Shown piece after piece: positions 842-53,015 of a stretch of DNA of 53,728 nt. Position numbers and translations under genes: made by a program. The stretch lies in sequence record PV733669.1, one strand, 5' to 3'. The stretch is from Escherichia phage ES2-BCU-3. The first letter of the stretch is position 1. The number at the start of each line of letters is the position of its first letter. Under the pieces are notes generated by a model. The model saw only the letters and a program-made list of their open reading frames with translations. It ran no database searches and had not been told where the DNA came from.

Positions 842-1641
842 GCCCAGTATTTAACCAGACAATTACCAAAGAATTGCAAGTTGGTGAACTGCGTAAAGTT
901 GTAACAGTATCATCAACTCGTCCTGACCTCAGCTTTGAAGACCTGGTGGCTTTTGCTAACCTGGCTCTCGAAGAGAACTCAATCTCCAGCTGTGAAGGCG
1001 TCAGTATTGAGCTGAATGTTGAAGGCATTCCTGCCAGACCCTTTGTGGGTGCAGTCGCTAAGCCAACGCGAGACCCGTTTGCTGAAGTACTTGTGGCCGT
1101 ATTTGGCCCTTCTCGTGGTACTGACCTTTATGACCGCCTGAAAAGAGCAGACTCACAGGCCGAGCGTGCTAGTAAGGAAGCACGTGAAGCTGAGAAGTTC
1201 AACAGTGAACTCGAATGCCGTACCAGCCAAATGGAAGTCAATGCTTTTGACTGGTTCAACGCAAAAGTAAACGGCACTAAGTGTGACCGTGACGGTATGG
1301 AAAAGGTATTGCATACCGGTGCACGTGAAATTGCAAAAGGCTGGGCTCATGTGCAGATGCTGCAAGAAAAGATTGTTCATATGGAAAAGAACCATCTTGA
1401 CGGCGTAGAGCTAATCAACGCCTATAAAGCCCAGATTAATGAGCTGCAGCAATTAATGGGCAAACGTGCTGAAGAACATGAAGCACAAATCCGTGAGCTG
1501 CATGGTACGTCTGTTGCTGCTAATCGTGCCTTTGACCGTGAGCGCGAAGCACGTATTGCAGCAGAAAAAGAGCTTGAAGAAGTTAACCGTAAAATCAAGC
1601 GCATGAAAGATTATGCCGTACGTTTGAATAGTGTTTGCTAA
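838..1641 (+). CDS. Hypothetical protein with C-terminal coiled-coil region
   Basis: ATG at 838 overlaps the upstream stop (ATGA) with AGGAG 8 nt upstream; track ORF begins at an upstream GTG (829). Confidence 0.55.
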   Translation: MSPVFNQTITKELQVGELRKVVTVSSTRPDLSFEDLVAFANLALEENSISSCEGVSIELNVEGIPARPFVGAVAKPTRDPFAEVLVAVFGPSRGTDLYDRLKRADSQAERASKEAREAEKFNSELECRTSQMEVNAFDWFNAKVNGTKCDRDGMEKVLHTGAREIAKGWAHVQMLQEKIVHMEKNHLDGVELINAYKAQINELQQLMGKRAEEHEAQIRELHGTSVAANRAFDREREARIAAEKELEEVNRKIKRMKDYAVRLNSVC

Positions 1642-1928
1642 TGGACCTCTTCGAACAGCTTGACAAGCCAGAAATTAACAGTATGGCAGAAGAAAGGCCG
1701 TTCGACTGGGAAGCTTTCAAGGCCGGTGAACCGGCCTTAACGTTTACCGGTGAAGTGGCTTATTACGGTGGACCTTGTACACATCCTATGTGTTTAGAAA
1801 GGTTCATAGCTATCGTTACTGTTCCGGACCATGCTATTATCAAGTATGGCAAGGATGTAATGCCGTACATTATCAATGAAGAAGGCTTATTTGAAGGCAG
1901 AAGCCCTTTTCTGGTAAAAATGGCGTAA
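1635..1928 (+). CDS. Hypothetical protein
   Basis: 97-aa ORF overlapping the upstream gene end; no recognisable motif. Confidence 0.45.
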   Translation: MLMDLFEQLDKPEINSMAEERPFDWEAFKAGEPALTFTGEVAYYGGPCTHPMCLERFIAIVTVPDHAIIKYGKDVMPYIINEEGLFEGRSPFLVKMA

Positions 1929-2043
1929 AACCGGATAAATATAAAGGCGTCTAGGTAGTCCTTATATAGATGTAAGCTACTTATTCGCCTTCCTACTGTA
2001 GACCTCCTCCTTATCTCTTTAGACATCCCAGATTCATCTCTTG

Positions 2044-2072
2044 TTTACATATCCTTTCTACCTCGTTATAAT
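2044..2072 (+). promoter_or_regulatory. Sigma70-like promoter (TTTACA-17-TATAAT)
   Basis: TTTACA at 2044..2049 and TATAAT at 2067..2072 with 17-nt spacer; -10/start region flanked by inverted repeat cctcgt(2061)/acgagg(2091). Confidence 0.55.
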
Positions 2073-2104
2073 CCGAGCTATCCGGATTGACGAGGACAAT
2101 ATCC

Positions 2105-2401
2105 ATGGCAAAATTGAAAAGTACCCGTGACGCAACAGAAGAACTGTTGAGCACGATGCGTCGTATTAAACTCGAACCTCTGGAGATAATGCAACGGGCT
2201 ATTACACAGGCTGAAGCCGAAAGTGATTATAAAGCCATGATGGACGGCGCTCTTGGTATCATGCCATACATGTACCCTAAACTGAAAGAGTCTGTTGTTA
2301 AAGCAGACATCGACCAGACACTTAACGGTAACGGCGTAAACCTGAACATTACTATCGGCGACCAAAAAGTTAACGTCGACGATGAGGATAAGGAAGAGTA
2401 A
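2105..2401 (+). CDS. terS: Putative terminase small subunit
   Basis: Small ORF immediately upstream of the large terminase with TAATG junction; ATG 2105 preceded by GAGGA (track ORF starts at TTG 2087). Assignment by position only. Confidence 0.35.
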   Translation: MAKLKSTRDATEELLSTMRRIKLEPLEIMQRAITQAEAESDYKAMMDGALGIMPYMYPKLKESVVKADIDQTLNGNGVNLNITIGDQKVNVDDEDKEE

Positions 2402-3849
2402 TGAATCTCGACTTCCACCTGCACGACAGACAAGGTGCCGCTCTGCAGTCTCAGGCAACTGAGATTCTGTACGGCGGTGCTGCAGGTGGTGGCAAGTCCC
2501 ACCTTATGCGTGTAATGTCCATCATTATGTGCTGCATGATTCCTGACTTGCAGATTTATCTGTTCCGACGCAACTATAATGACTTGACGGCTAACCATAT
2601 GGTTGGACCCACAAGTTATCCTGCCTTGCTGGATGGCATGTGTAAAGCCGGCAAGTGTAAGATTAACTATTCCAGTAACACAATCAAGTTCTGGAATGGC
2701 GCAAACATCAAGCTGTGTCACCTGCAGTATGAGAAAGACATCTATACCTACCAGGGTGCTGAGATTCACGTTCTGCTGATGGATGAGCTTACTCACTTCT
2801 CAGAAACGATGTATCGATTCCTTCGTAACCGTGTTCGACTCGGTGCACTGAAGGTACCTGAGAACTTCTTCCGGCCGCTGCCTCTCATCTTTTGTGGGTC
2901 GAACCCCGGCGGTGTAGGACACAACTGGGTTAAGCGTACGTTTGTAACTGCTGCTCCTCCAATGAAGATTGTTAAGCAGGACAAACGTGAAGGTGGTATG
3001 GCTCGACAGTACATCCCAGCTAAAATGACTGATAACCCGACGCTGATGGAAAACGACCCTGACTACGGCGACCGTCTTGAAGGTCTGGGTGACCCTGCTC
3101 TTGTGTCTGCAATGAAAGAAGGTGACTGGGATATTGTTGCTGGTGGTGCACTTGACGATGTATGGTCGACTAAATGTATCATACCTCGTATGCGTATACC
3201 TCGCGGATGGACAATTGAACGTTCTCTTGACTGGGGTTCTACTCACCCGTTCTCTGTCGGCTTCTGGGCAATTGCTAACGGCGCGCCTCTTATGGACGAC
3301 GAAGGCAATGAGTACTATATACCGCGCGGCTCTATTATCCGTATTGCTGAGTGGTATGGTTGTTCTGAAAAAGAAGCTAACAAAGGTATTAAGCTGTCCG
3401 CCGTAGAAGTTGCTGAAGGTATTCTCCGAATCCAGGAGAACCTGCAAGCTGGCGGATGGATAGATAGTAATGTCAACGCAGGTCCTGCTGATGGTCAAAT
3501 CTACGCGAGCAAAGAGAAGGACGTGGAGACTATTGCGAAGAAAATGGAAGACGCCGGAGTAACCTGGGTCAAAGCCGATAAATCGCAAGGGTCGAGAATA
3601 AATGGCCTCGAGCTATTCCGTCAGCTCCTGAAAAATGTTAAGATGGACGAAACGGAAAAGCCGGGTATTTATTTCATGGAAAACTGTCCGGCAGCAATAA
3701 ACACGTTGCCAGTTCTTCCTCGTGATAAGAACAACACTGAGGACGTAGATACCAACTCGGAAGACCACGTATATGATGATTGTCGTTACATGGTTGTAAG
3801 AGGTATCAACCGTTATACTACATCAATCAAGATTAATATGGGACGGTAA
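2401..3849 (+). CDS. terL: Terminase large subunit
   Basis: Walker A GGAAGGGKS near the N-terminus and Walker B-like VLLMDE; 482 aa; followed directly by a portal-sized gene. Confidence 0.8.
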   Translation: MNLDFHLHDRQGAALQSQATEILYGGAAGGGKSHLMRVMSIIMCCMIPDLQIYLFRRNYNDLTANHMVGPTSYPALLDGMCKAGKCKINYSSNTIKFWNGANIKLCHLQYEKDIYTYQGAEIHVLLMDELTHFSETMYRFLRNRVRLGALKVPENFFRPLPLIFCGSNPGGVGHNWVKRTFVTAAPPMKIVKQDKREGGMARQYIPAKMTDNPTLMENDPDYGDRLEGLGDPALVSAMKEGDWDIVAGGALDDVWSTKCIIPRMRIPRGWTIERSLDWGSTHPFSVGFWAIANGAPLMDDEGNEYYIPRGSIIRIAEWYGCSEKEANKGIKLSAVEVAEGILRIQENLQAGGWIDSNVNAGPADGQIYASKEKDVETIAKKMEDAGVTWVKADKSQGSRINGLELFRQLLKNVKMDETEKPGIYFMENCPAAINTLPVLPRDKNNTEDVDTNSEDHVYDDCRYMVVRGINRYTTSIKINMGR

Positions 3850-3850
3850 A

Positions 3851-5413
3851 ATGTCAATACCTTCAGCGACTACTCCGAATGTTGGTTACCAACGTCCTGA
3901 GTTAACGAAGAATTCTGGCAAATACAATATGATTAAAGATTGTATTGAAGGCCAGCAGGCTGTTAAACGTCGTAAAACGTTTTATCTTCCGCAGCCAGAC
4001 CCTACTAACTGTACGGCGGAAAACATTCGCCGTTATGAACAGTACCTTGAGCGTGCTGTATTCTATAACGTGCTGCAGCGTACCCTGTCAGGTATGACTG
4101 GTCTTGTTTTCCAGCAGCCACCTGAGATGCTCATGCCGGATGATATGGAAGTCCTGCGTGTAAATATCGATGGTGCTGGTATTGGTGCAATCCAACAGAT
4201 GCGCCGTTGCTTTAAATCTGTATTGGCCTTTGGTCGCGCAGGTATACTTACTGACTTCCCGCCGGCTCGTGTCGACAGCGAAGGCAAGCAACTTGGTTTT
4301 ACTCGCCAAGAGCTGATGGATGGTACAGTACAACCTACCGTTACACTGTACATGCCGTGGCAAGTCATTAACTGGCGTGAAGAGTATCGCGAAGGTAAAG
4401 TTGTACTGACTCAGGTAGTTATCTGTGAGCAGATTCCTGGCGTTACAGACGGATTCCAGCAGGACTACACTCCTGTGTGGCGCCACCTGTTCCTTGACAG
4501 CAATGGTGATTGCACACAAACAATCTGGGTTAACAAGGGTGACCCCAAAGCTGATAACGTTTCTGGCGGCGCACTGTACGTTGCACAGCAGACTGCGGTT
4601 ATGAAAGACTCGAACGGTAAGCCTCTCAAGTTTATCCCGTTCAAGTTCATTGGTTCTGAAACCAACAGTGCTGAGATTGACCCGCCGCCAATGTATGACC
4701 TGGCTGTGCTGAACATCGCGCACTATCGTAACTCAGCTGACTACGAAGAATCATGCTTTATCACAGGTCAGCCCACAGTATGGGCGTCTGGTCTGACAGA
4801 AGCATGGGTCGAAGATGTTCTCAAGGGTGAACTGCGCCTTGGTTCTTACGGCGGTATTCCGCTGCCAGCTAATGCTGCTGTGGGCATGATTCAGACGAGC
4901 CCTAACACCCAGCCGTTCGAAGCAATGAAACAGAAAGAAGCGCAGATGATTGCTATCGGTGCTCGACTGATTCGTGAGAATGGTAAAGTAGAACGTCGTG
5001 AAGTTGAAATTAAAAACGAAGCAGCATCTGAAGCCTCGTTAATCGTAACTGTTGCGCAAAACGTTGAAGCAGCATATCGTGAAGCACTTGGTTGGTGCGC
5101 TCTGTTCTACGGGCATGACCCCAAAGAACTGACTATCAACCTGAGCTATAACTTCATCTACAGCCAGATGACATATCAGGAACGTCAGCAGCTGGTAAAT
5201 GAATGGCTCGCAGGTGCAATCACCTTCACCGAAATGCGTAGCAACCTGAAACAAGCTGGCATTGCTAAACTTACTGATGATGAAGCTAAGAAAGCCATTG
5301 ACGAAGAGATGGCTGAACGTGACGCACGGGAAGTAGCAAAAGAAGCTGAAAAGAATGCTCAAGCAGCTAAGAACAACAATGTGGAAGAAAATAATCCAGA
5401 AAAAGTTGAGTAA
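3851..5413 (+). CDS. Portal protein (putative)
   Basis: 520-aa ORF directly downstream of terL, the conserved position of portal genes; acidic C-terminus. Confidence 0.55.
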   Translation: MSIPSATTPNVGYQRPELTKNSGKYNMIKDCIEGQQAVKRRKTFYLPQPDPTNCTAENIRRYEQYLERAVFYNVLQRTLSGMTGLVFQQPPEMLMPDDMEVLRVNIDGAGIGAIQQMRRCFKSVLAFGRAGILTDFPPARVDSEGKQLGFTRQELMDGTVQPTVTLYMPWQVINWREEYREGKVVLTQVVICEQIPGVTDGFQQDYTPVWRHLFLDSNGDCTQTIWVNKGDPKADNVSGGALYVAQQTAVMKDSNGKPLKFIPFKFIGSETNSAEIDPPPMYDLAVLNIAHYRNSADYEESCFITGQPTVWASGLTEAWVEDVLKGELRLGSYGGIPLPANAAVGMIQTSPNTQPFEAMKQKEAQMIAIGARLIRENGKVERREVEIKNEAASEASLIVTVAQNVEAAYREALGWCALFYGHDPKELTINLSYNFIYSQMTYQERQQLVNEWLAGAITFTEMRSNLKQAGIAKLTDDEAKKAIDEEMAERDAREVAKEAEKNAQAAKNNNVEENNPEKVE

Positions 5414-47989: not shown

Positions 47990-48027
47990 GGGCTTAGGTG
48001 TTATATGCATCTAAGTCCTTCTTTTTT
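47990..48027 (+). terminator. Rho-independent terminator
   Basis: Stem gggcttag(47990..47997)/ctaagtcc(48011..48018) with one G-U pair, 13-nt loop, then TTCTTTTTT. Confidence 0.55.
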
Positions 48028-48034
48028 AAGCTCT

Positions 48035-48342
48035 TTTTTCCGGCGGAGGCAATGCATATAATCATATATTTGAATATATATCACTTAAACCTTTGTTTTA
48101 TATACTCTTTTCGAATCCATAATCCATATAGCTTTCTTTAAATAATTAAGGGGGTAATAAGGGTACACAAGACCAGATAAAGGGGTAGATATTATTATTT
48201 ATTTATTATATATATTATATATATTTATATATTAGATAAAGAGTAAGTAAAACAGCTACTTAGAAGGCTAGAATCCATATTCACGGGAATATAGTTATAT
48301 GGATTACAGACCGGATAAAGAAAATCCTCCGCCGGCGGAAAA
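48035..48342. other. AT-rich block bounded by inverted repeats (candidate replication origin)
   Basis: Inverted repeats tttttccggcggagg(48035..48049) and cctccgccggcggaaaa(48326..48342); a 45-bp run of only A/T (48191..48235); internal aatccatat/atatggatt inverted repeats; two AGGGGTA direct repeats. Confidence 0.45.
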
Positions 48343-48379
48343 TTTAAAAAAGTCGGATTGCTAAATAAATTCGTAGACG

Positions 48380-48408
48380 TTTACACTGTGATTAATATGT
48401 AGTACAAT
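48380..48408 (+). promoter_or_regulatory. Sigma70-like promoter (TTTACA-17-TACAAT)
   Basis: TTTACA 48380..48385; TACAAT 48403..48408. Confidence 0.45.
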
Positions 48409-48458
48409 AATCACCAATATCCCAAATTAGCAGAATTTTCAACAGGATTGAATACAAT

Positions 48459-48887
48459 ATGGTTAACATTCGAGTAAAAGGCCAAAACTTTGAGCGTAAA
48501 ATGGCAAAAAAATTCAATGAATCATTTGGATTGAGTGTTGAACGCAATCTTCAACAGTCTATTAATGGCGGGGATGACTTACTCGGGGTACCGTTTTTCA
48601 GCGTTGAGCTTAAAAAACACAATACAAAAGCCATCGGTACGTGGTGGCGTCAATGTGAGGAGTCAGCAAAGCGTCATGATAAGACGCCTGTACTAATATA
48701 CGAACTTCCACGCCAAAAGCCAGTCGTTGTAATGCGACGCAGTGACGTGGATGTTGGTATATTACCACTTGGTACAACTTTCAAAGAGGCAACTAACAGG
48801 CTCTTTGTGGGCTTGGTAGAGCTAACATGGGAACAATTTTGCCAGGTCTACAACTTTTACGTTGCGCCTGGCGTTGATGTCAGTTAA
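48459..48887 (+). CDS. Hjc-like Holliday junction resolvase (PD-(D/E)XK), putative
   Basis: KGQNFERKMAKKF...G and DDLLGVPFFSVELKK parallel archaeal Hjc motifs KGxxxER and D...ExK. Confidence 0.5.
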   Translation: MVNIRVKGQNFERKMAKKFNESFGLSVERNLQQSINGGDDLLGVPFFSVELKKHNTKAIGTWWRQCEESAKRHDKTPVLIYELPRQKPVVVMRRSDVDVGILPLGTTFKEATNRLFVGLVELTWEQFCQVYNFYVAPGVDVS

Positions 48888-49068
48888 CAGGTTTTAGCTC
48901 GTCGCAGATAACACGCTGGTTTTGTGCAGGCACTAATCCCAGTTCTAACAAAGTGTATGGACTATCGGCAGCACATTGTTCTACGGTAGTCCATTCAGGT
49001 TTCGCTTCGACAACTTTGTATTCACAGTCGTGTGCAGCGATACAAGTAGCAAGAATCAAACCAATCAT
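48880..49068 (-). CDS. Hypothetical small protein
   Basis: 62-aa ORF with hydrophobic N-terminus. Confidence 0.4.
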   Translation of the reverse strand: MIGLILATCIAAHDCEYKVVEAKPEWTTVEQCAADSPYTLLELGLVPAQNQRVICDELKPVN

Positions 49069-49314
49069 TTATTTACTCCTGATGCCAAGTTTATTGAACA
49101 ACCAAATACACATATCAACCCAGGTTACTGGTACAGTTTTCGGGGGTTGATAAGACCATGCTTTTGCAGCTCGCTCCGCATTTTCTTCTCGCCTGCGCGC
49201 TTGGCGTAATACTTGACTGTCAGTAATGCCGGCAGAAAAAACATCGGCAATGTGAGATAAATCGCGTCGATGAACACGTCCAACCAAATCATTCAGTTGC
49301 TCCTCAGAAAACAT
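49069..49314 (-). CDS. Hypothetical protein
   Basis: 81-aa ORF; GGAG RBS. Confidence 0.45.
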   Translation of the reverse strand: MFSEEQLNDLVGRVHRRDLSHIADVFSAGITDSQVLRQARRREENAERAAKAWSYQPPKTVPVTWVDMCIWLFNKLGIRSK

Positions 49315-49426
49315 AACTCAACACCATACATACGATAACAATACCAATTACAATCCGCCACATGCTACGATTAACAGCATATACCGGATTCTCAGTAGTA
49401 TACTCAACAACATGTTTACGGACCAT
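49304..49426 (-). CDS. Small hydrophobic peptide (40 aa), not in the ORF track
   Basis: ATG at 49426 preceded by AAGGAGG (6-nt spacer); encodes MVRKHVVEYTTENPVYAVNRSMWRIVIGIVIVCMVLSYVF with one TM-like helix; stop TGA 49304..49306. Confidence 0.4.
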   Translation of the reverse strand: MVRKHVVEYTTENPVYAVNRSMWRIVIGIVIVCMVLSYVF

Positions 49427-49448
49427 AATCGGCCTCCTTGTGGGTTAA

Positions 49449-49493
49449 TTCAATCATGAGGACTTTCATCAAATCCTCATTGTTGAATTACTC
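49449..49493 (-). promoter_or_regulatory. Conserved-flank intergenic hairpin (early operon element 1)
   Basis: Minus strand reads GAGTAA-TTCAACA-[ATGAGGA...TCCTCAT]-GATTGAA; 7-bp stem between the upstream stop and the next RBS. Confidence 0.5.
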
Positions 49494-49793
49494 ATCATCA
49501 GCAGTATAATTGGAAATATCTTCCGCCAATGTTTCAATGTCAAACACCGCATTCAAGAAAGAATGCTCAACAACAGCTTTATCAAGTTCATCATCATAAT
49601 AAAGCTCAATGTAACTACCATACAACTCTTCTACACTTTCAATTGCAGGATAAATCTCATGCACTGCAGCATAGAAATCATCAAAATTATCAAAACAACG
49701 ACAATTTGTCAACTCTTGACCTTGCATCATTTCAACTAACTCATTAGTCAGATAAAAATAGCAATTGTGCTGGTTAATAATGAATGGTGTCAT
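49488..49793 (-). CDS. Hypothetical acidic protein
   Basis: ATG at 49793 with GAGGAGAG RBS (track ORF starts at TTG 49820); strongly acidic. Confidence 0.5.
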   Translation of the reverse strand: MTPFIINQHNCYFYLTNELVEMMQGQELTNCRCFDNFDDFYAAVHEIYPAIESVEELYGSYIELYYDDELDKAVVEHSFLNAVFDIETLAEDISNYTADDE

Positions 49794-49818
49794 GTTTCTC
49801 TCCTCAGTGATATTAATC

Positions 49819-49839
49819 AAGTCCCGGATACCGAGACTT
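49819..49839 (-). promoter_or_regulatory. Intergenic hairpin (early operon element 2)
   Basis: 9-bp stem aagtcccgg/ccgagactt with 3-nt loop; lies upstream of the 49793 start. Confidence 0.4.
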
Positions 49840-49847
49840 TGTTAATT

Positions 49848-50048
49848 TCACTCAATCATCACCTGAGCTACTATTATACACTCTTTATTGAATCTGGTAA
49901 ACACTTTACCTGCATTGGTACGTTTTGCACCAGCTTTTAATGCAGTTTGTGTCCAGACATTCCACTCTTCAGTTGTCAAAAATTGTTGGTCAACTTTTGG
50001 AGGTAACTGTTGAGCTATATGAACTGTAGTAAATTTGATTAATGGCAT
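49848..50048 (-). CDS. Hypothetical protein
   Basis: ATG at 50048 (MPLIKF...), 10-nt overlap with the upstream gene; track ORF starts at 50078. Confidence 0.4.
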   Translation of the reverse strand: MPLIKFTTVHIAQQLPPKVDQQFLTTEEWNVWTQTALKAGAKRTNAGKVFTRFNKECIIVAQVMIE

Positions 50049-50275
50049 ACACCACCATAACTTTGGATTTGTACACAAAAACTTCTGAAATTGTGAAGAG
50101 GAATATCGTCACAATTAATGAAGTATTGACCAGTTAAAGATTTCAAACCAAACCGCACATAACCTTTGTTAAGGTTGAGACGCACAATCTCACAAAATAA
50201 ATCATATGCGCCCAATTCCTGAACTTTTGGATGATTGATGTCTGGGTTAAAGTCAATCAGCATTTCTACTTTCAT
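50039..50275 (-). CDS. Hypothetical protein
   Basis: ATG at 50275 with AGGAG RBS (track ORF starts at TTG 50302). Confidence 0.5.
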   Translation of the reverse strand: MKVEMLIDFNPDINHPKVQELGAYDLFCEIVRLNLNKGYVRFGLKSLTGQYFINCDDIPLHNFRSFCVQIQSYGGVCH

Positions 50276-50296
50276 GTTTCTTCTCCTGTTGAATAA

Positions 50297-50347
50297 TTTC
50301 AATCATGAACTATCGCAACTTTGATAGTTCATTGTTGAAACTATTGC
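50297..50347 (-). promoter_or_regulatory. Conserved-flank intergenic hairpin (early operon element 3)
   Basis: Minus strand reads TAG-TTTCAACA-[ATGAACTATC...GATAGTTCAT]-GATTGAAA; 10-bp stem 50305..50314/50323..50332. Confidence 0.5.
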
Positions 50348-50529
50348 AATTTTGTACTAATTTGAATCGTGAGTCTGAATTGTTCAAGTAAGTCGCTAAC
50401 GCGAGAATTATCTTCAACACTAGACTCAATTTGATCACTAACAATTTGAGCATTTGATTCAAGAAGTTCAATCAAGTGCGCCAATTCGTCTGCTGTCAGT
50501 TTAAGTTCTTTCATAATTTTAACAACCAT
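50341..50529 (-). CDS. Hypothetical small protein
   Basis: 62-aa acidic ORF. Confidence 0.45.
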   Translation of the reverse strand: MVVKIMKELKLTADELAHLIELLESNAQIVSDQIESSVEDNSRVSDLLEQFRLTIQISTKLQ

Positions 50530-50774
50530 CCCATTACCAGTCCAAGGTCAGCAATATCATCACTGTCACGTTCACCGTCTTTGAATTCAGTACAGAACAT
50601 TCGCATGATTTGTGCCAAATTCATATTGATGACATACGCATGAATTTTCAAGTCTTCAAGAGGAGTGTCAAGTACTAATTGACCAAACTCCTGAAAACTT
50701 TCGTCCCAATTCAAGAACCATTCACGTGCGTAATGATGCAACTTGTCCATCAGGTCTTTGTCGTCAAGTGTCAT
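50511..50774 (-). CDS. Hypothetical protein
   Basis: 87-aa ORF; RBS AGGAG upstream of ATG 50774. Confidence 0.5.
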   Translation of the reverse strand: MTLDDKDLMDKLHHYAREWFLNWDESFQEFGQLVLDTPLEDLKIHAYVINMNLAQIMRMFCTEFKDGERDSDDIADLGLVMGWLLKL

Positions 50775-50796
50775 GTTTTTTACTCCTGTTGATTAA

Positions 50797-50842
50797 TAAT
50801 TTCAATCCAGACCTCTCGTAAGAGGTCTGTCAGAAATTACTC
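50797..50842 (-). promoter_or_regulatory. Conserved-flank intergenic hairpin (early operon element 4)
   Basis: Minus strand reads GAGTAA-TTTCTGAC-[AGACCTCT-UACG-AGAGGTCT]-GGATTGAAA; 9-bp stem 50808..50816/50821..50829. Confidence 0.5.
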
Positions 50843-51403
50843 TTCAGTTTCTTGTTCCGGAGCTTTATCATCAGCTTTATCATCAGTTTTTACAACTGAT
50901 TTACCGTCAGTGATTTTACCGGATTTTACATCATTACGGTAGTATGACATATAAGACTGTACAACACGTTTTGCCTTAATATCATCATCTGCCATTTCAC
51001 AAGCTTTCATTGCATCTGCAAGTGCCAGCTTGGAATCTTCTTTGTCCAGCAAGTTGTAATCTTTGAACACGGTATAGCATGTGTCCTTAGTTGATGGACC
51101 AGTTGAAGTTTTACGGGTGCCACCAGTGCTGGATTTTTGTTTGACTGCAACATGCTGAACTTCAAGCTGATTGAGTTCATCAAACAATGCCTTCATCATC
51201 ACTTCTTTGGAATCTTTGATTGTGCAGGTAGTCTCATCATTGAGACTTTTAATCATTTTCAACAGTTGATTGCGTTCAAAATGCTGGAGAGCATTCTGCT
51301 GCACAATCATTGACGCCATAGTGTCGTCAGTTGTCAGACCGTCCATCACAGCTTCAACAGAAAACGCGGAAGTAATGTAAACGTAGTTGATTGCAGTAGT
51401 CAT
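50837..51403 (-). CDS. Hypothetical protein (188 aa)
   Basis: ORF with GAGAGGA RBS; Lys/Asp-rich C-terminus. Confidence 0.5.
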   Translation of the reverse strand: MTTAINYVYITSAFSVEAVMDGLTTDDTMASMIVQQNALQHFERNQLLKMIKSLNDETTCTIKDSKEVMMKALFDELNQLEVQHVAVKQKSSTGGTRKTSTGPSTKDTCYTVFKDYNLLDKEDSKLALADAMKACEMADDDIKAKRVVQSYMSYYRNDVKSGKITDGKSVVKTDDKADDKAPEQETEE

Positions 51404-51455
51404 GTTTGTATCCTCTCATTGATAGATTTTTGATTGTCAATCCTTGACAAGTAAG

Positions 51456-51501
51456 TCCAATCATGACAACTTTGGTAAGTTGTCATTGTTGGAAATTACT
51501 C
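51456..51501 (-). promoter_or_regulatory. Conserved-flank intergenic hairpin (early operon element 5)
   Basis: Minus strand reads GAGTAA-TTTCCAACA-[ATGACAACTT-ACCA-AAGTTGTCAT]-GATTGGA; stem 51464..51472/51477..51485; a second palindrome ttgtcaa/ttgacaa lies at 51433..51451. Confidence 0.5.
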
Positions 51502-51645
51502 TTGATATTTGACTACTTGTGACTGGATAAAATCAACACAATCGTCCACGTCCATTGACTCAAAGTCTGGAACTGGTCCATTGTTAATGTTGACACACCA
51601 CAGTCCCTCATTGTCATCATACCAAAGTGTATAATTGTCTTTCAT
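51496..51645 (-). CDS. Hypothetical small protein (first gene of the early minus-strand operon)
   Basis: ATG at 51645 with GAGGTGA RBS 6 nt upstream; track ORF extends to GTG 51699 through a hairpin. Confidence 0.45.
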   Translation of the reverse strand: MKDNYTLWYDDNEGLWCVNINNGPVPDFESMDVDDCVDFIQSQVVKYQE

Positions 51646-51675
51646 AATAGTCACCTCATGTATTAGTTTCCAGGT

Positions 51676-51699
51676 GTGACTACTGTTACCAATAGTCAC
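51676..51699 (-). promoter_or_regulatory. Leader hairpin with the same 5' flank as the intergenic hairpins
   Basis: Minus strand reads GTAATAGTTTCAACCA-[GTGACTA...TAGTCAC]; 7-bp stem 51676..51682/51693..51699. Confidence 0.4.
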
Positions 51700-51886
51700 T
51701 GGTTGAAACTATTACTTGTGTTACTATCAACAAGAAACATGTTAACCAGATTGTTAAAGAGCAAAAGACACCATTGACCATCTACCAGATGTGTCTGTTG
51801 ACTGGTTGAGTACTAACAACATAAGTAACTACATAAATCCTCCTGAACCATTCTTGTGTTGAATTGTTCAACACATTCAATAAATA

Positions 51887-51916
51887 TATAATAGTCCAAT
51901 CGCTATTGATTGTACA
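51887..51916 (-). promoter_or_regulatory. Candidate early promoter for the minus-strand small-gene operon
   Basis: TTGTACATAAA at 51910..51920 matches the recurring GTGTACATA -35 region; TATATA/TATTAT -10-like hexamers 17-18 nt away on the minus strand. Confidence 0.35.
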
Positions 51917-51966
51917 TAAAAGAATTGCAAGTTAGTGCAAGTATTTAGAAACGATAATCACTTGCG

Positions 51967-52226
51967 GTTGATAGTGGTTCTCGATTACAATTGATATAGT
52001 TACTCGAGTAATCACTTCGTTTGAAATGGTCGGCAGGGGTTATAGTTACATAGGGGTGCTATCTAATAGGGCCGGCGAAATTATTTATAAAAATATAATT
52101 TCAATCTGAATTGTAGACGCTTTGAACTACTTCGGCCGAAACTGCTACACGGGTAATAGTTACTCTGGTAATGATTGCGTTGGTAATAGTTCACAACGAA
52201 ATAGGGTGCGGGGGGTATAATCACTC
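51967..52226. repeat. Iteron-like array of about 13-bp direct repeats (consensus GGTAATAGTTACTC)
   Basis: Copies at 51993..52005 (gatatagttactc), 52039..52049 (gttatagttac), 52152..52165 (ggtaatagttactc), 52182..52194 (ggtaatagttcac); degenerate copies at 51967, 52006, 52167, 52214; inverted copy at 51707..51715; AT-rich tract 52081..52100. Confidence 0.55.
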
Positions 52227-52412
52227 TGTGTGACCAATTTTAAGCGCCGACGGATTTTTTTATTTTTTGCTCCTTTTTAGACTCCTAGTACTCAATCATC
52301 ATCATATCAATCACGATTGTGTTACCATAAAGCCTTTTGTACAGAAATTGGAGGCCCCTCCAAAAATTTTTTATATTTTTCTGGAATTGTGTAGACATCT
52401 GTTAAAAAGTGG

Positions 52413-52441
52413 TGTACTTTTTTCTCACCACGCGCTATCAT
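52413..52441 (+). promoter_or_regulatory. Early-type promoter (GGTGTACT -35 region, TATCAT -10)
   Basis: TGTACT 52413..52418, 17-nt spacer, TATCAT 52436..52441; -35 inside inverted repeat gtggtg/caccac. Confidence 0.45.
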
Positions 52442-52505
52442 TAATTATCATCAACAACGACGTGTCAACGGACTTGCCTTGACCGTCCCTACTTGTGGGT
52501 TACAT

Positions 52506-53015
52506 ATGGAACTAGTCACTTTGACTCCGTATCCTCCGCAATTAGCTGTTGTGCTGAGTAAAAAACAGCATGATGAGCTGATTAAAGAGATGGATTTGCC
52601 TCCTTTTGGCCACTGGGAGGATGAATTTCCTGTCGCTGCAACAACTTTTACCTTCAACCGTAAGAGCTATCCCTATTGCTTTATAGTCGTAGAGCTCTAC
52701 CTCCCGGACGACCTCCGCTACAATACCATATCCCACGAAGGCATCCATGTCATGTCGTCATTAATGAAGTATGTCGGTCTTAAGTACGACGCAGATAACG
52801 ACGAATGGTATGCTTATCAGCATGATTTTATCGTAAACGCCATTTGTAAGGCTCATGACGAGTATATAAAGGCCAAAAAAGAGCAAGAAATTGCTCCAAA
52901 ACGCATAGAAACGGGCAATCATCCGTCTCTTGATGACACTCCACCTTGGCCTGAGCATGACCCAATGAAGGCCTTACTTTCCGAACCATCATCACAGGAT
53001 TTTTTAAATGACTGA
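52506..53015 (+). CDS. HExxH zinc metallopeptidase-like protein (putative)
   Basis: Contains HEGIH, a zincin-type HExxH motif; ATG at 52506 (track ORF starts at TTG 52479). Confidence 0.45.
   Translation: MELVTLTPYPPQLAVVLSKKQHDELIKEMDLPPFGHWEDEFPVAATTFTFNRKSYPYCFIVVELYLPDDLRYNTISHEGIHVMSSLMKYVGLKYDADNDEWYAYQHDFIVNAICKAHDEYIKAKKEQEIAPKRIETGNHPSLDDTPPWPEHDPMKALLSEPSSQDFLND

What the first reader, a model, noticed from the sequence alone, without database searches (positions are those of the whole stretch)
49449..51699. Intergenic hairpins with conserved flanks and covarying stems across the early minus-strand operon
At least five junctions (49449..49493, 50297..50347, 50797..50842, 51456..51501, and the leader at 51676..51699) share the minus-strand pattern stop codon - TTTC(A/C)AACA - hairpin - GATTGAA, while the 7-10 bp stems differ completely in sequence (ATGAGGA, ATGAACTATC, AGACCTCT, ATGACAACTT, GTGACTA). 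Structure kept with sequence changed points to selection on an RNA or DNA structure. None is followed by a U-tract, so they are unlikely to be simple terminators. RNase III-type processing sites, as found between T7 early genes, are one option; translational-coupling or regulator sites are others. A hairpin-less version of the flanks (TTTCAACAGGATTGAA, 48438..48453) sits in the leader of the Hjc-like gene.
Basis: seen in the sequence. Interest (0 to 1): 0.7.

Follow-up and report, generated by a model that had tools for sequence, protein, structure and literature searches.

The report
Two-tier RNA hairpins between early genes
The leader and five gene junctions of this Salmonella phage's early operon each carry a conserved two-tier RNA hairpin built like the RNase III cutting sites of phage T7 early mRNA, so the long early transcript is probably cut into separate stable messages.

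Summary
The window is a Loughboroughvirus (99.8% identical to Salmonella phage S144). Its early minus-strand operon carries six elements, not five: a leader element and junctions J1 to J5. J4, at 49804-49854, was missed.

Each element is therefore one long irregular hairpin:
- an AU-rich lower stem of 5-12 bp that contains the upstream stop codon;
- a small internal loop, usually CA/GA;
- a variable upper stem of 9-12 bp.

Fold z-scores are -5.2 to -7.6. In 20 related phages the hairpins sit at the same junctions with many compensatory changes and some wholly replaced stems. G·U pairs outnumber A·C mismatches 82 to 2, and the sense strand folds better in 47 of 54 elements. This points to RNA of the sense strand.

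None of the six is terminator-like, and none matches an Rfam family. Their geometry matches T7 sites R0.3 to R1.3, including a GC/W/AU "proximal box" and in some elements a UA/UG "distal box". RNase III processing of a polycistronic early mRNA is the best explanation (about 0.55) but is untested.

The "hairpin-less" copy is just the resolvase gene's ribosome-binding site. Gene modules between the hairpins are reshuffled among relatives, and two of the three breakpoints read lie in the conserved flanks.

The parts
51659..51715 (-). Leader element L. Lower stem is UAGUUUC/GAAACUA, the internal loop is 5x5, the upper stem is GUGACUAUUG/CAGUAGUCAC (51676-51699) and the loop is GUAA. It lies in the 5' UTR of the first gene (ATG at 51645).
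   Evidence: Fold -24.7 kcal/mol, z = -6.13. Model R2 gives 23.7 bits, E = 0.014, on the sense strand only. Relatives show A-U to G-C (BP63) and U-A to A-U (SOI901) compensatory changes. In KE26 the same element carries the canonical flanks TTTCAACA...GATTGAAA.
51448..51501 (-). J1, between the 49-aa gene and the 188-aa gene. The stop codon TAA (51498-51496) lies in the lower stem. The internal loop is CA/GA, the upper stem is AUGACAACUU/AAGUUGUCAU (51463-51486) and the loop is ACCA.
   Evidence: Fold -22.4 kcal/mol, z = -7.60. R2 gives 64.8 bits on the sense strand and 37.6 on the antisense. In Sz and birk the stem is AUGGGGACUU/AAGUCCUCAU, with two double-sided changes.
50793..50844 (-). J2, after the 188-aa gene. 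The lower stem is AGUAAUUUC/GAAAUUAUU, the internal loop is 3x4 (UGA/GAUU), the upper stem is CAGACCUCU/AGAGGUCUG (50808-50829) and the loop is UACG.
   Evidence: Fold -22.3 kcal/mol, z = -5.24. Rosemountviruses have GAUGGCACU/AGUGCCAUC at the same junction, with five pairs changed on both sides. SOI901 and fHy-Eco03 change the lower stem from AAUUUC/GAAAUU to AAUAUC/GAUAUU.
50290..50347 (-). J3, after the 62-aa gene. The lower stem is 11 bp (AAUAGUUUCAA/UUGAAAUUAUU) and includes the stop codon TAG. The internal loop is CA/GA, the upper stem is AUGAACUAUC/GAUAGUUCAU (50305-50332) and the loop is 8 nt.
   Evidence: Fold -22.9 kcal/mol, z = -7.14. R2 gives 56.4 bits on the sense strand and 35.0 on the antisense. 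SOI901 has UUGAACUAUC/GAUAGUUCAA, an A-U to U-A change.
49804..49854 (-). The lower stem is GUGAA-AUUAA/UUAAU-AUCAC and includes the stop codon TGA. The internal loop is CA/GA, the upper stem is AAGUCUCGG/CCGGGACUU (49819-49839, with one U·G) and the loop is UAU.
   Evidence: Fold -21.8 kcal/mol, z = -6.29. Relatives have AAGUCCCG/CGGGGCUU, AAGUCCUG/CAGGGCUU, AAGUCCUUGC/GUGAGGACUU, AAGUCUCCA/UGGGGACUU or AUGCGGUAU/GUACCGCAU, with the lower stem changed to UUUUUA/UAAAAA. Model R2 does not find it because its lower stem differs.
49441..49495 (-). J5, after the 101-aa gene. The lower stem is UAAUUCAA/UUGAAUUA with the stop codon TAA. The internal loop is CA/GA, the upper stem is AUGAGGAUUU/AAGUCCUCAU (49456-49480, with a conserved U·G) and the loop is GAUGA.
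   Evidence: Fold -20.5 kcal/mol, z = -5.35. R2 gives 72.4 bits on the sense strand and 35.9 on the antisense. It is conserved in all relatives read. In yarpen and swi3 the internal loop shrinks to 1x1.
48880..51645 (-). The early operon itself (S144 ORF80 to ORF71, the paper's "cluster E"): ten small genes of unknown function in tightly packed groups separated by the hairpins.
   Evidence: ORFs and annotation. No Pfam hit; PHROGs hits only to families of unknown function and one membrane-protein moron. The region lies in the 3.7-kb direct terminal repeat of relative fHy-Eco03 and next to the physical genome end in S144.
48322..48345 (-). GC-rich hairpin followed by a U run, on the minus strand downstream of the operon. 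It is the only terminator-like site after the last operon gene and is given for contrast with the junction hairpins.
   Evidence: Terminator scan.
48437..48452 (+). It is the ribosome-binding region of the resolvase gene (ATG at 48459) and is not part of the family.
   Evidence: S144 annotates the AGGA as the ribosome-binding site.

Best explanation
Each element is a cis-acting structure in the sense-strand early mRNA, which is made by the host RNA polymerase. It is a hairpin of about two helical turns, interrupted about 10 bp below the apical loop by a small internal loop.

The most likely function is as a host RNase III processing signal of the kind found in the phage T7 early transcript. 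Inferred steps:
- RNase III binds the roughly 20-bp helix.
- The helix defect restricts cutting to one strand.
- The cut falls about 13 nt 3' of the apical loop, at about ...UCAUGAU^UGAA. Predicted positions, give or take 2 nt, are 51673/51672, 51460/51459, 50804/50803, 50302/50301, 49815/49814 and 49453/49452.
- The upstream message then ends in the stable upper hairpin, which shields it from 3' exonucleases.
- The downstream message begins with the AU-rich leader GAUUGAAAUUAUUCAACAGGAG...AUG.

The 3' flank is constrained both as a translation leader and as a pairing partner, and the 5' flank must pair with it. Both therefore stay constant, while the upper stem only has to remain a helix.

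Shown here: the structure, its conservation with covariation, its strand polarity, its restriction to the early operon, and its likeness to T7 sites. Inferred: that RNase III is the enzyme, where it cuts, and what follows from the cut.
For: Structure:
- Six two-tier hairpins with z = -5.2 to -7.6.
- The same architecture appears in 54 distinct copies from 20 relatives. The median upper stem is 10 bp, 26 of 54 copies have a 2x2 internal loop, and the median lower stem is 8 bp.

Selection on pairing:
- 99.3% of cells pair against 84% in shuffles. There are 58 double-sided cells against 13.9, and all slid registers pair in fewer than 50% of cells.
- Whole upper stems are replaced at orthologous junctions J2 and J4.

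Sense-strand RNA rather than duplex DNA:
- 82 G·U pairs against 2 A·C 1x1 mismatches.
- The sense fold is more stable in 47 of 54 elements (mean -22.2 against -18.3 kcal/mol).
- Model scores are 20-37 bits higher on the sense strand.

Likeness to T7:
- T7 R0.3, R0.5, R1 and R1.1 fold to an upper stem of 9-10 bp, an internal loop and a lower stem (R1.3 has a 13-bp upper stem). They sit in the leader and between early cistrons.
- The 3' side of T7 R1.1 reads UAU|GAUUGA; ours reads CAU GAUUGA.

Published E. coli RNase III rules (PMC1540722): at least 11 bp between cut and loop; proximal box positions pb1 = GC, pb2 = AU or UA, pb3 = AU; a G·C pair at pb2 blocks binding; distal box UA/UG.
- In the window, the first three pairs above the internal loop are AU, UA/AU, GC in J1, J3, J4 and J5.
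- None of the six has G·C at the pb2 position.
- UA/UG sits at pairs 9 and 8 above the internal loop in L and J5, as in T7 R1.1. It keeps that register when the stem is 11 bp (SOI901 L and K2).

Context:
- No phage RNA polymerase was found, and the operon lies at the genome end or in the terminal repeat.
- The elements are not terminator-like.
Against: - No RNA-end data exist for this phage group. The 26 papers that name either genus were listed and two were read; neither mentions the hairpins.
- The cut position is assumed by analogy, so the proximal and distal box reading depends on that register.
- L and J2 have G-C or C-G at the pb3 position. J3 (and K1 in relative KM) has A-U where the distal box wants U·G, a substitution reported to lower reactivity more than 30-fold. 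J4 has no UA/UG.
- J1, J3 and J5 share AUGA...UCAU and may be paralogues, so their agreement with the rules is not three independent observations.
- In some relatives the internal loop closes to 1x1 or vanishes (yarpen J4 and J5, BP63 J1). The defect is therefore not strictly required.
- The strong sequence conservation of the lower stem exceeds what RNase III is known to need. It could instead mark recognition by another factor.
Confidence: 0.55

Rival explanations
1. The hairpins are passive RNA stability or translation devices with no RNase III cut. They would act as barriers to 3' exonucleases after cuts made elsewhere, for example by RNase E. Alternatively they would act as coupling devices: the stop codon lies in the lower stem, so a terminating ribosome melts it and frees the leader of the next gene.
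For: - The structure is on the sense RNA and is conserved.
- Every upstream stop codon lies in the 5' strand of the lower stem.
- The Shine-Dalgarno sequence starts 1-9 nt after the hairpin base.
Against: - The Shine-Dalgarno sequence and start codon are never inside the helix, so there is little to unmask.
- A helix of about 20-24 bp is the standard substrate length for E. coli RNase III (PMC1540722). Avoiding the enzyme would need antideterminants, and none is seen at the pb2 position.
- A plain barrier would not need a helix defect at a fixed depth.
Confidence: 0.2
2. The conserved lower stem and CA/GA internal loop are the binding site of a sequence-specific protein, either one of the unknown early proteins or a host factor. 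That protein would process, protect or translationally regulate each cistron. The upper stem would be a mere clamp.
For: - The lower stem and internal loop are nearly constant among paralogous copies while upper stems vary freely.
- The family is confined to one phage clade.
- The ten operon proteins have no known function.
Against: - The lower stem itself covaries or is replaced in some copies: AAUUUC/GAAAUU to AAUAUC/GAUAUU, and AUUAA/UUAAU to UUUUUA/UAAAAA.
- The internal loop differs in J2 and L and closes in some relatives.
- No RNA-binding or nuclease domain was detected.
- Conservation of the 3' flank is also explained by its role as a translation leader.
Confidence: 0.1
3. The primary role is at the DNA level. 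The conserved junction sequences would be recombination linkers that let early-gene modules be swapped, lost or gained, as proposed for PeSL cassettes of T4-type phages. The hairpin would be incidental or act in single-stranded DNA.
For: - Gene order between the hairpins differs among relatives, while the hairpins stay at module borders.
- Breakpoints lie in the flanks. AV127 fuses the J2 3' flank and leader to the gene that follows J3 in BP63. BP63 fuses ...GAGTGAT to TCAACA of J5, losing J4 and one gene.
Against: - The 82:2 excess of G·U over A·C, and compensatory changes inside the upper stems, show selection on folding of one strand. Homology-driven exchange does not need this.
- G·T is tolerated in single-stranded DNA too, but nothing here suggests a single-stranded DNA stage.
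- Recombinants are viable only if they break between genes, so breakpoints at junctions are partly a survivorship effect.
- This is best seen as a consequence of the repeats, not their reason.
Confidence: 0.1
4. They are transcription terminators or attenuators that grade expression along the operon.
For: They are stable hairpins after stop codons. The 3' strand of the lower stem is moderately U-rich.
Against: - None passes a terminator scan, whereas GC-rich hairpins with U runs elsewhere in the window do.
- The stems are AU-rich, and the sequence after the full helix is CAACAGGAG-like.
- One of the elements lies in the leader, before any gene.
Confidence: 0.04

Closest known systems
RNase III processing sites of the phage T7 (and T3) early mRNA: R0.3, R0.5, R1, R1.1, R1.3
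   Same: - One site lies in the leader and one lies between groups of cistrons of an early, host-polymerase transcript at the genome end.
- The hairpin has an upper stem of 9-10 bp, a small loop, an internal loop and a lower stem.
- The base of the upper stem reads AU, AU or UA, GC.
- UA/UG lies near the top in R1.1 and in L, J5 and K2.
- The 3' side reads AUGAUUGA in R1.1 and in J3 and J5.
   Different: - The phage lineage is unrelated: a 53-kb myovirus with no phage RNA polymerase.
- In T7 the upper stem is the conserved part (AAGGUC...GGCCUU). Here the lower stem is conserved and the upper stem varies.
- The internal loop here is usually a symmetric 2x2 CA/GA, not T7's asymmetric loop.
- Cleavage is proven for T7 and untested here.
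PeSL (promoter-early stem-loop) cassettes of T4-type phages, from my own knowledge of Arbiol, Comeau and Krisch 2010
   Same: Short conserved stem-loop-containing sequences flank small early genes of unknown function. They coincide with the borders of modules that are shuffled among related phages.
   Different: PeSLs carry an early promoter. No promoter signal above chance is found in these elements. Here there is clear selection for RNA pairing with covariation.
Integron attC sites
   Same: Gene-sized cassettes are each followed by an imperfect palindrome with conserved outer boxes and a variable centre. The J2 hairpin travels with the 188-aa gene.
   Different: - The outer boxes do not fit RYYYAAC/GTTRRRY.
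- I did not look for an integron integrase; none is annotated in the parts of relatives read.
- Other hairpins (J3) change both neighbours.
- The G·U excess is on the mRNA-sense strand.
Intrinsic (Rho-independent) terminators
   Same: A hairpin directly after a stop codon.
   Different: AU-rich, two-tier, with no U tract; not called by the scan.

Membership tests
E. coli-type RNase III processing signal (T7 early-mRNA kind) | Helix of about two turns (about 20-22 bp) in one RNA strand | tested here: met
   Upper stem of 9-12 bp, internal loop, and lower stem of 5-12 bp (more with bulges) give about 19-25 bp-equivalents in all six window elements and in 54 distinct copies. The length requirement is from PMC1540722.
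E. coli-type RNase III processing signal (T7 early-mRNA kind) | Internal loop or bulge near the expected cut, at least 11 bp from the apical loop, which limits cutting to one strand | tested here: met
   The defect begins after an upper stem of 9-10 bp in all six window elements. T7 R0.3, R0.5, R1 and R1.1 fold the same way (R1.3 has a 13-bp upper stem). The 11-bp rule is from PMC1540722. A few relatives close the loop to 1x1 or 0.
E. coli-type RNase III processing signal (T7 early-mRNA kind) | Proximal box: pb1 GC, pb2 AU/UA (a G·C pair here blocks binding), pb3 AU | tested here: inconclusive
   Taking the T7 R1.1 register, J1, J3, J4 and J5 fit at all three positions. None of the six has G·C at pb2. 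L and J2 have G-C or C-G at pb3 (rules). The register is assumed, and J1, J3 and J5 may be paralogues.
E. coli-type RNase III processing signal (T7 early-mRNA kind) | Distal box UA/UG about 10 bp from the cut | tested here: inconclusive
   UA/UG lies at pairs 9 and 8 above the internal loop in L and J5 (and in K2 and SOI901 L of relatives), the same register as in T7 R1.1. U-A at pair 9 is present in 5 of 6. Pair 8 is C-G in J1 and J2, A-U in J3 and G-C in J4. T7's own sites vary likewise.
E. coli-type RNase III processing signal (T7 early-mRNA kind) | Lies in the leader and between cistrons of a polycistronic transcript made by the host polymerase | tested here: met
   Positions relative to ORFs. 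No phage RNA polymerase. The operon lies in the terminal repeat or at the genome end. That the operon is early and is one transcript is inferred.
E. coli-type RNase III processing signal (T7 early-mRNA kind) | Cut by RNase III in vivo or in vitro | not testable with these tools
   No transcript-end data for Loughboroughvirus or Rosemountvirus were found among the 26 papers that name either genus (titles and abstract starts listed; two papers read).
Intrinsic terminator | G+C-rich stem followed by a run of U | tested here: not met
   None of the six is among the terminator-like sites in 48000-53000.
PeSL-type mobile regulatory cassette | Early promoter joined to the stem-loop | tested here: not met
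   There are 16 promoter-like sites against 17.2 expected, and none lies in the conserved parts of the elements.
PeSL-type mobile regulatory cassette | Marks the borders of shuffled gene modules | tested here: met
   Synteny map of 12 phages and two breakpoints in the flanks.
Any Rfam family | Match at the gathering score | tested here: not met
   No match in the whole window. Only chance-level hits, at less than half the gathering score, in 49300-51800.

The most novel reading that the evidence does not exclude
The elements could be a lineage-specific, dual-purpose junction module. As RNA they would punctuate the early transcript, cut by RNase III or by a dedicated factor that reads the conserved lower stem and CA/GA loop. 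As DNA, their conserved roughly 13-nt 5' flank and roughly 35-nt 3' flank-plus-leader would act as portable recombination joints. Small host-takeover genes could then be exchanged, lost and gained as ready-to-express cassettes, a cassette system that needs no integrase.
Probability: 0.15. Interest if true: 0.7.

Novelty: new member of a known kind. Interest (0 to 1): 0.5.

Why it matters
If confirmed, T7-style RNase III punctuation of early mRNA would not be peculiar to the T7 group. It would also occur in an unrelated clade of polyvalent Salmonella and E. coli myoviruses that are being developed for biocontrol.

It would give exact borders for the expression units of about ten unknown early genes, which are likely host-takeover functions. 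It would add a well-supported RNA family that is absent from Rfam. It would also offer a natural set of about eight upper-stem variants on one scaffold for testing RNase III substrate rules.

The link between the conserved junctions and module reshuffling offers a concrete mechanism for how early regions of these phages diversify.

Tried and rejected
- Flanks as promoter hexamers: no consistent -35/-10 match, and the promoter scan is at chance level.
- Terminators: rejected.
- Duplex-DNA palindromes, operators or cruciforms: rejected by the G·U against A·C asymmetry and the sense-over-antisense scores.
- A first unbiased G·U/A·C count over all hairpins in the loci was swamped by unrelated chance hairpins (100 against 70). 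I redid it on the curated elements.
- "Hairpin-less empty site" at 48437-48452: it is the resolvase ribosome-binding site, and the TTTCAACA part is not conserved.
- An alternative pairing between the leader's 3' arm and the copy of GTGACTATT at the first gene's ribosome-binding site (about 51646-51654): no covariation. BP63 has GTGGCTATT in the stem but GTAACTATT at the ribosome-binding site.
- Known RNA families: none.
- A nuclease or RNA-binding protein encoded in the operon: no Pfam hits, and PHROGs hits are only to families of unknown function plus one membrane-protein moron.
- MAFFT could not align the variable upper stems, so I used a covariance model seeded on equal-length copies. That model still misses J4 and scores L and J2 weakly.
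- Protein-based search of IMG/VR found only close relatives. A DNA-pattern scan found one further relative, L024. The other five new contigs are single, probably chance, matches.
- Transcriptome-wide RNase III rules (PMC6212723) gave no simple test to apply.

Full report
**Identity and setting.** The window is a Loughboroughvirus. Positions 49000-52000 are 99.8% identical to Salmonella phage S144 and 99.4% identical to ZCSE2. The Rosemountvirus group (BP63, birk, yarpen and others) matches at about 75-80%. The finding lies in S144's "cluster E" (ORF80 to ORF71), ten small genes of unknown function on the minus strand. The S144 paper reports no phage RNA polymerase. It notes a lower G+C content for this cluster and places the physical genome ends in the gap just upstream of it. 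In relative fHy-Eco03 the homologous genes lie in a 3.7-kb direct terminal repeat. The operon is therefore plausibly the first DNA to be expressed, by the host polymerase. That it is early is an inference.

**Checking the observation.** All five listed hairpins are present. A sixth element of the same build (J4, 49804-49854) was missed. The key correction is that the "conserved flanks" are complementary: TTTCAA pairs with TTGAAA, often extended to AATAGTTTCAA/TTGAAATTATT. Each element is one long irregular hairpin with four parts:
- a lower stem of 5-12 bp that contains the stop codon of the upstream gene;
- an internal loop (CA opposite GA in J1, J3, J4 and J5; 3x4 in J2; 5x5 in the leader);
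- an upper stem of 9-10 bp;
- an apical loop of 3-8 nt.

All six fold far better than shuffles (z = -5.2 to -7.6; 0 of 200 shuffles as good). The 8-mer TTYMAACA alone is not enriched. A covariance model of the element finds only these sites in the whole window.

**Comparative evidence.** I read the homologous region in 20 relatives, including one metagenomic contig. All carry the hairpins at the same kinds of junction. In total there are 54 distinct sequences, and every one folds to the same architecture. Examples of change with pairing kept:
- J1: AUGACAACUU/AAGUUGUCAU becomes AUGGGGACUU/AAGUCCUCAU.
- J2: CAGACCUCU/AGAGGUCUG becomes GAUGGCACU/AGUGCCAUC, with five pairs changed on both sides.
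- J3: the first pair changes from A-U to U-A.
- J4: six different stems.
- Leader: A-U to G-C, and U-A to A-U.
- Lower stems: AAUUUC/GAAAUU to AAUAUC/GAUAUU, and AUUAA/UUAAU to UUUUUA/UAAAAA.

On a model-made alignment of 27 distinct copies (J1, J3, J5, K2 and one leader), 99.3% of cells pair against 84.0% in shuffles. There are 58 cells with changes on both sides against 13.9 ± 3.2. Every slid register falls below 50% paired. That alignment is fitted to the structure and its rows are related, so the shuffle control overstates significance. The slid-register control and the stem replacements do not depend on it.

**Which molecule folds.** In the curated set there are 82 G·U pairs and only two A·C 1x1 mismatches. 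The sense strand folds better in 47 of 54 elements (mean -22.2 against -18.3 kcal/mol). Model scores are 20-37 bits higher on the sense strand. A duplex-DNA palindrome, whether a protein site or a cruciform, would not tolerate G·T more than A·C. The selected structure is therefore in the sense strand, most simply the mRNA.

**What it is not.** None of the six is called terminator-like, whereas ordinary GC-rich hairpins with U runs exist elsewhere in the window. Promoter-like hits are at chance level. There is no Rfam match. The "hairpin-less" TTTCAACAGGATTGAA at 48437-48452 lies on the other strand and is the ribosome-binding region of the resolvase gene. In relatives only the AACAGGATTGAA-like part recurs. 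It resembles the TCAACAGGAG leaders after J2 and J3.

**Comparison with T7.** I folded the five T7 early sites, using cut coordinates recalled from Dunn and Studier 1983. Four of them (R0.3, R0.5, R1, R1.1) show an upper stem of 9-10 bp, a loop of 4-5 nt, an internal loop and a lower stem; R1.3 has a 13-bp upper stem and a 3-nt loop. One site lies in the leader and the others lie between cistrons. The recalled R1.1 cut (UAU|GAUUGA) agrees with the geometry in Pertzev and Nicholson 2006: an 11-bp helix between cut and loop, and a 28-nt product. That paper gives these sequence rules: proximal box pb1 GC, pb2 AU or UA (a G·C pair blocks binding), pb3 AU; distal box UA/UG.

In the R1.1 register, the first three pairs above the internal loop correspond to pb3, pb2 and pb1.
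- J1, J3, J4 and J5 read AU, UA or AU, GC, a full fit.
- None of the six has G·C at pb2.
- L and J2 deviate at pb3.
- UA/UG occupies pairs 9 and 8 above the internal loop in L and J5, and in K2 and the SOI901 leader. There the stem is 11 bp, and the box keeps its distance from the internal loop rather than from the apical loop.
- J1 and J2 have UA/CG, as does T7 R0.5. J3 has UA/AU, which is unfavourable. J4 lacks the box.

The fit is suggestive, not decisive. The register is assumed, and several stems may share ancestry.

**Proposed mechanism.** RNase III binds the roughly two-turn helix. The defect limits cutting to the 3' strand about 13 nt after the loop. The upstream mRNA then keeps the upper hairpin as a 3' cap. 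The downstream mRNA starts with the AU-rich leader GAUUGAAAUUAUUCAACAGGAG. The double constraint on the 3' flank, as leader and as pairing partner, would explain why the flanks are constant and the upper stems are free to vary. Because each stop codon lies in the lower stem, a terminating ribosome should melt it, so processing could be tied to translation. This last point is speculation. All of these steps are inferred. I put RNase III processing at about 0.55 and "conserved sense-strand RNA structure under selection" at about 0.9.

**Module reshuffling.** Gene families between the hairpins occur in different orders in different phages:
- The 188-aa gene with the J2 hairpin is second in Loughborough- and Rosemountviruses, but second from the end of the hairpin-bounded part in SOI901, fHy-Eco03, KM and KE26.
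- The 101-aa gene follows J4, J3 or K1, depending on the phage.
- J3 follows three different genes.
- Yarpen has J4 and J5 side by side.

Three breakpoints were read directly. AV127 joins the J2 3' flank and leader to the gene that follows J3 in BP63, across a roughly 35-nt near-identical stretch. BP63 joins ...GAGTGAT to TCAACA of J5, losing J4 and one gene. A third junction, in yarpen, runs from the J4 3' flank to within the end of the 101-aa gene. The repeats thus appear to serve as recombination joints, as proposed for T4 PeSL cassettes (from my own knowledge). I treat this as a consequence of the repeats rather than their primary role, because homology-driven exchange does not explain selection on pairing.

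**Distribution and novelty.** An exact-pattern scan of IMG/VR found several copies only in relatives of this clade. The 26 papers that name either genus were listed and two were read; neither mentions these hairpins, and no listed title concerns transcript processing. This is a new, lineage-specific member of a known kind, the intercistronic RNase III-type processing hairpin. Its function is still to be shown.

Noticed in passing
L003, L005, L011 and L016 against window 49441-50844: Gene modules between the hairpins are reshuffled, lost or gained among relatives. Two of the three breakpoints read lie in the conserved flanks. AV127 fuses the J2 3' flank and leader to the gene after J3. BP63 fuses GAGTGAT to TCAACA of J5. 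Yarpen keeps J4 and J5 side by side with no gene between them, with one deletion end inside that gene's 3' end.
   Followed up: partly
window 51988-52224: Four to six copies of a GGTAATAGTTAC-like motif, in both orientations, lie in the non-coding gap between the divergent operons. The S144 paper places the physical genome ends in this gap. They could be protein-binding, packaging or replication sites.
   Followed up: partly
window 51855-51875: A perfect palindrome TGTGTTGAA-CAA-TTCAACACA (9-bp arms) lies upstream of the early operon. It looks like an operator, and it contains the TTCAACA heptamer also seen in the hairpin flanks.
   Followed up: no
window 48036-48049 and 48329-48342: The inverted repeat TTTTCCGGCGGAGG / CCGCCGGCGGAAAA brackets a roughly 280-bp TATA-rich stretch between the primase and resolvase genes. 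The second arm is also a terminator-like hairpin on the minus strand.
   Followed up: no
window 51277-51298 and 49359-49383 (minus strand): Two further two-tier hairpins (about -18 and -20 kcal/mol) lie inside coding sequence, in the 188-aa gene and the 40-aa membrane-protein gene. With these exact sequences they were found only in the closest relatives (S144, AEV23, ZCSE2).
   Followed up: no
window 51496-51501, 50837-50842, 49848-49853, 49488-49493: The stop codon of every gene upstream of a hairpin lies in the 5' strand of the lower stem. Four of the five such genes end in GAG followed by the stop codon, so the conserved element reaches into the last codon.
   Followed up: partly
window 51646-51654 against 51690-51698: GTGACTATT occurs both as the 5' arm of the leader hairpin and across the ribosome-binding site of the first gene. 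This hints at an alternative pairing, but relatives show no covariation (BP63: GTGGCTATT against GTAACTATT).
   Followed up: yes
L007 (fHy-Eco03) 1252-4950: The homologous operon lies inside a 3.7-kb direct terminal repeat in fHy-Eco03, so related genomes deposited as circular or without repeats may be missing a terminal repeat copy.
   Followed up: no
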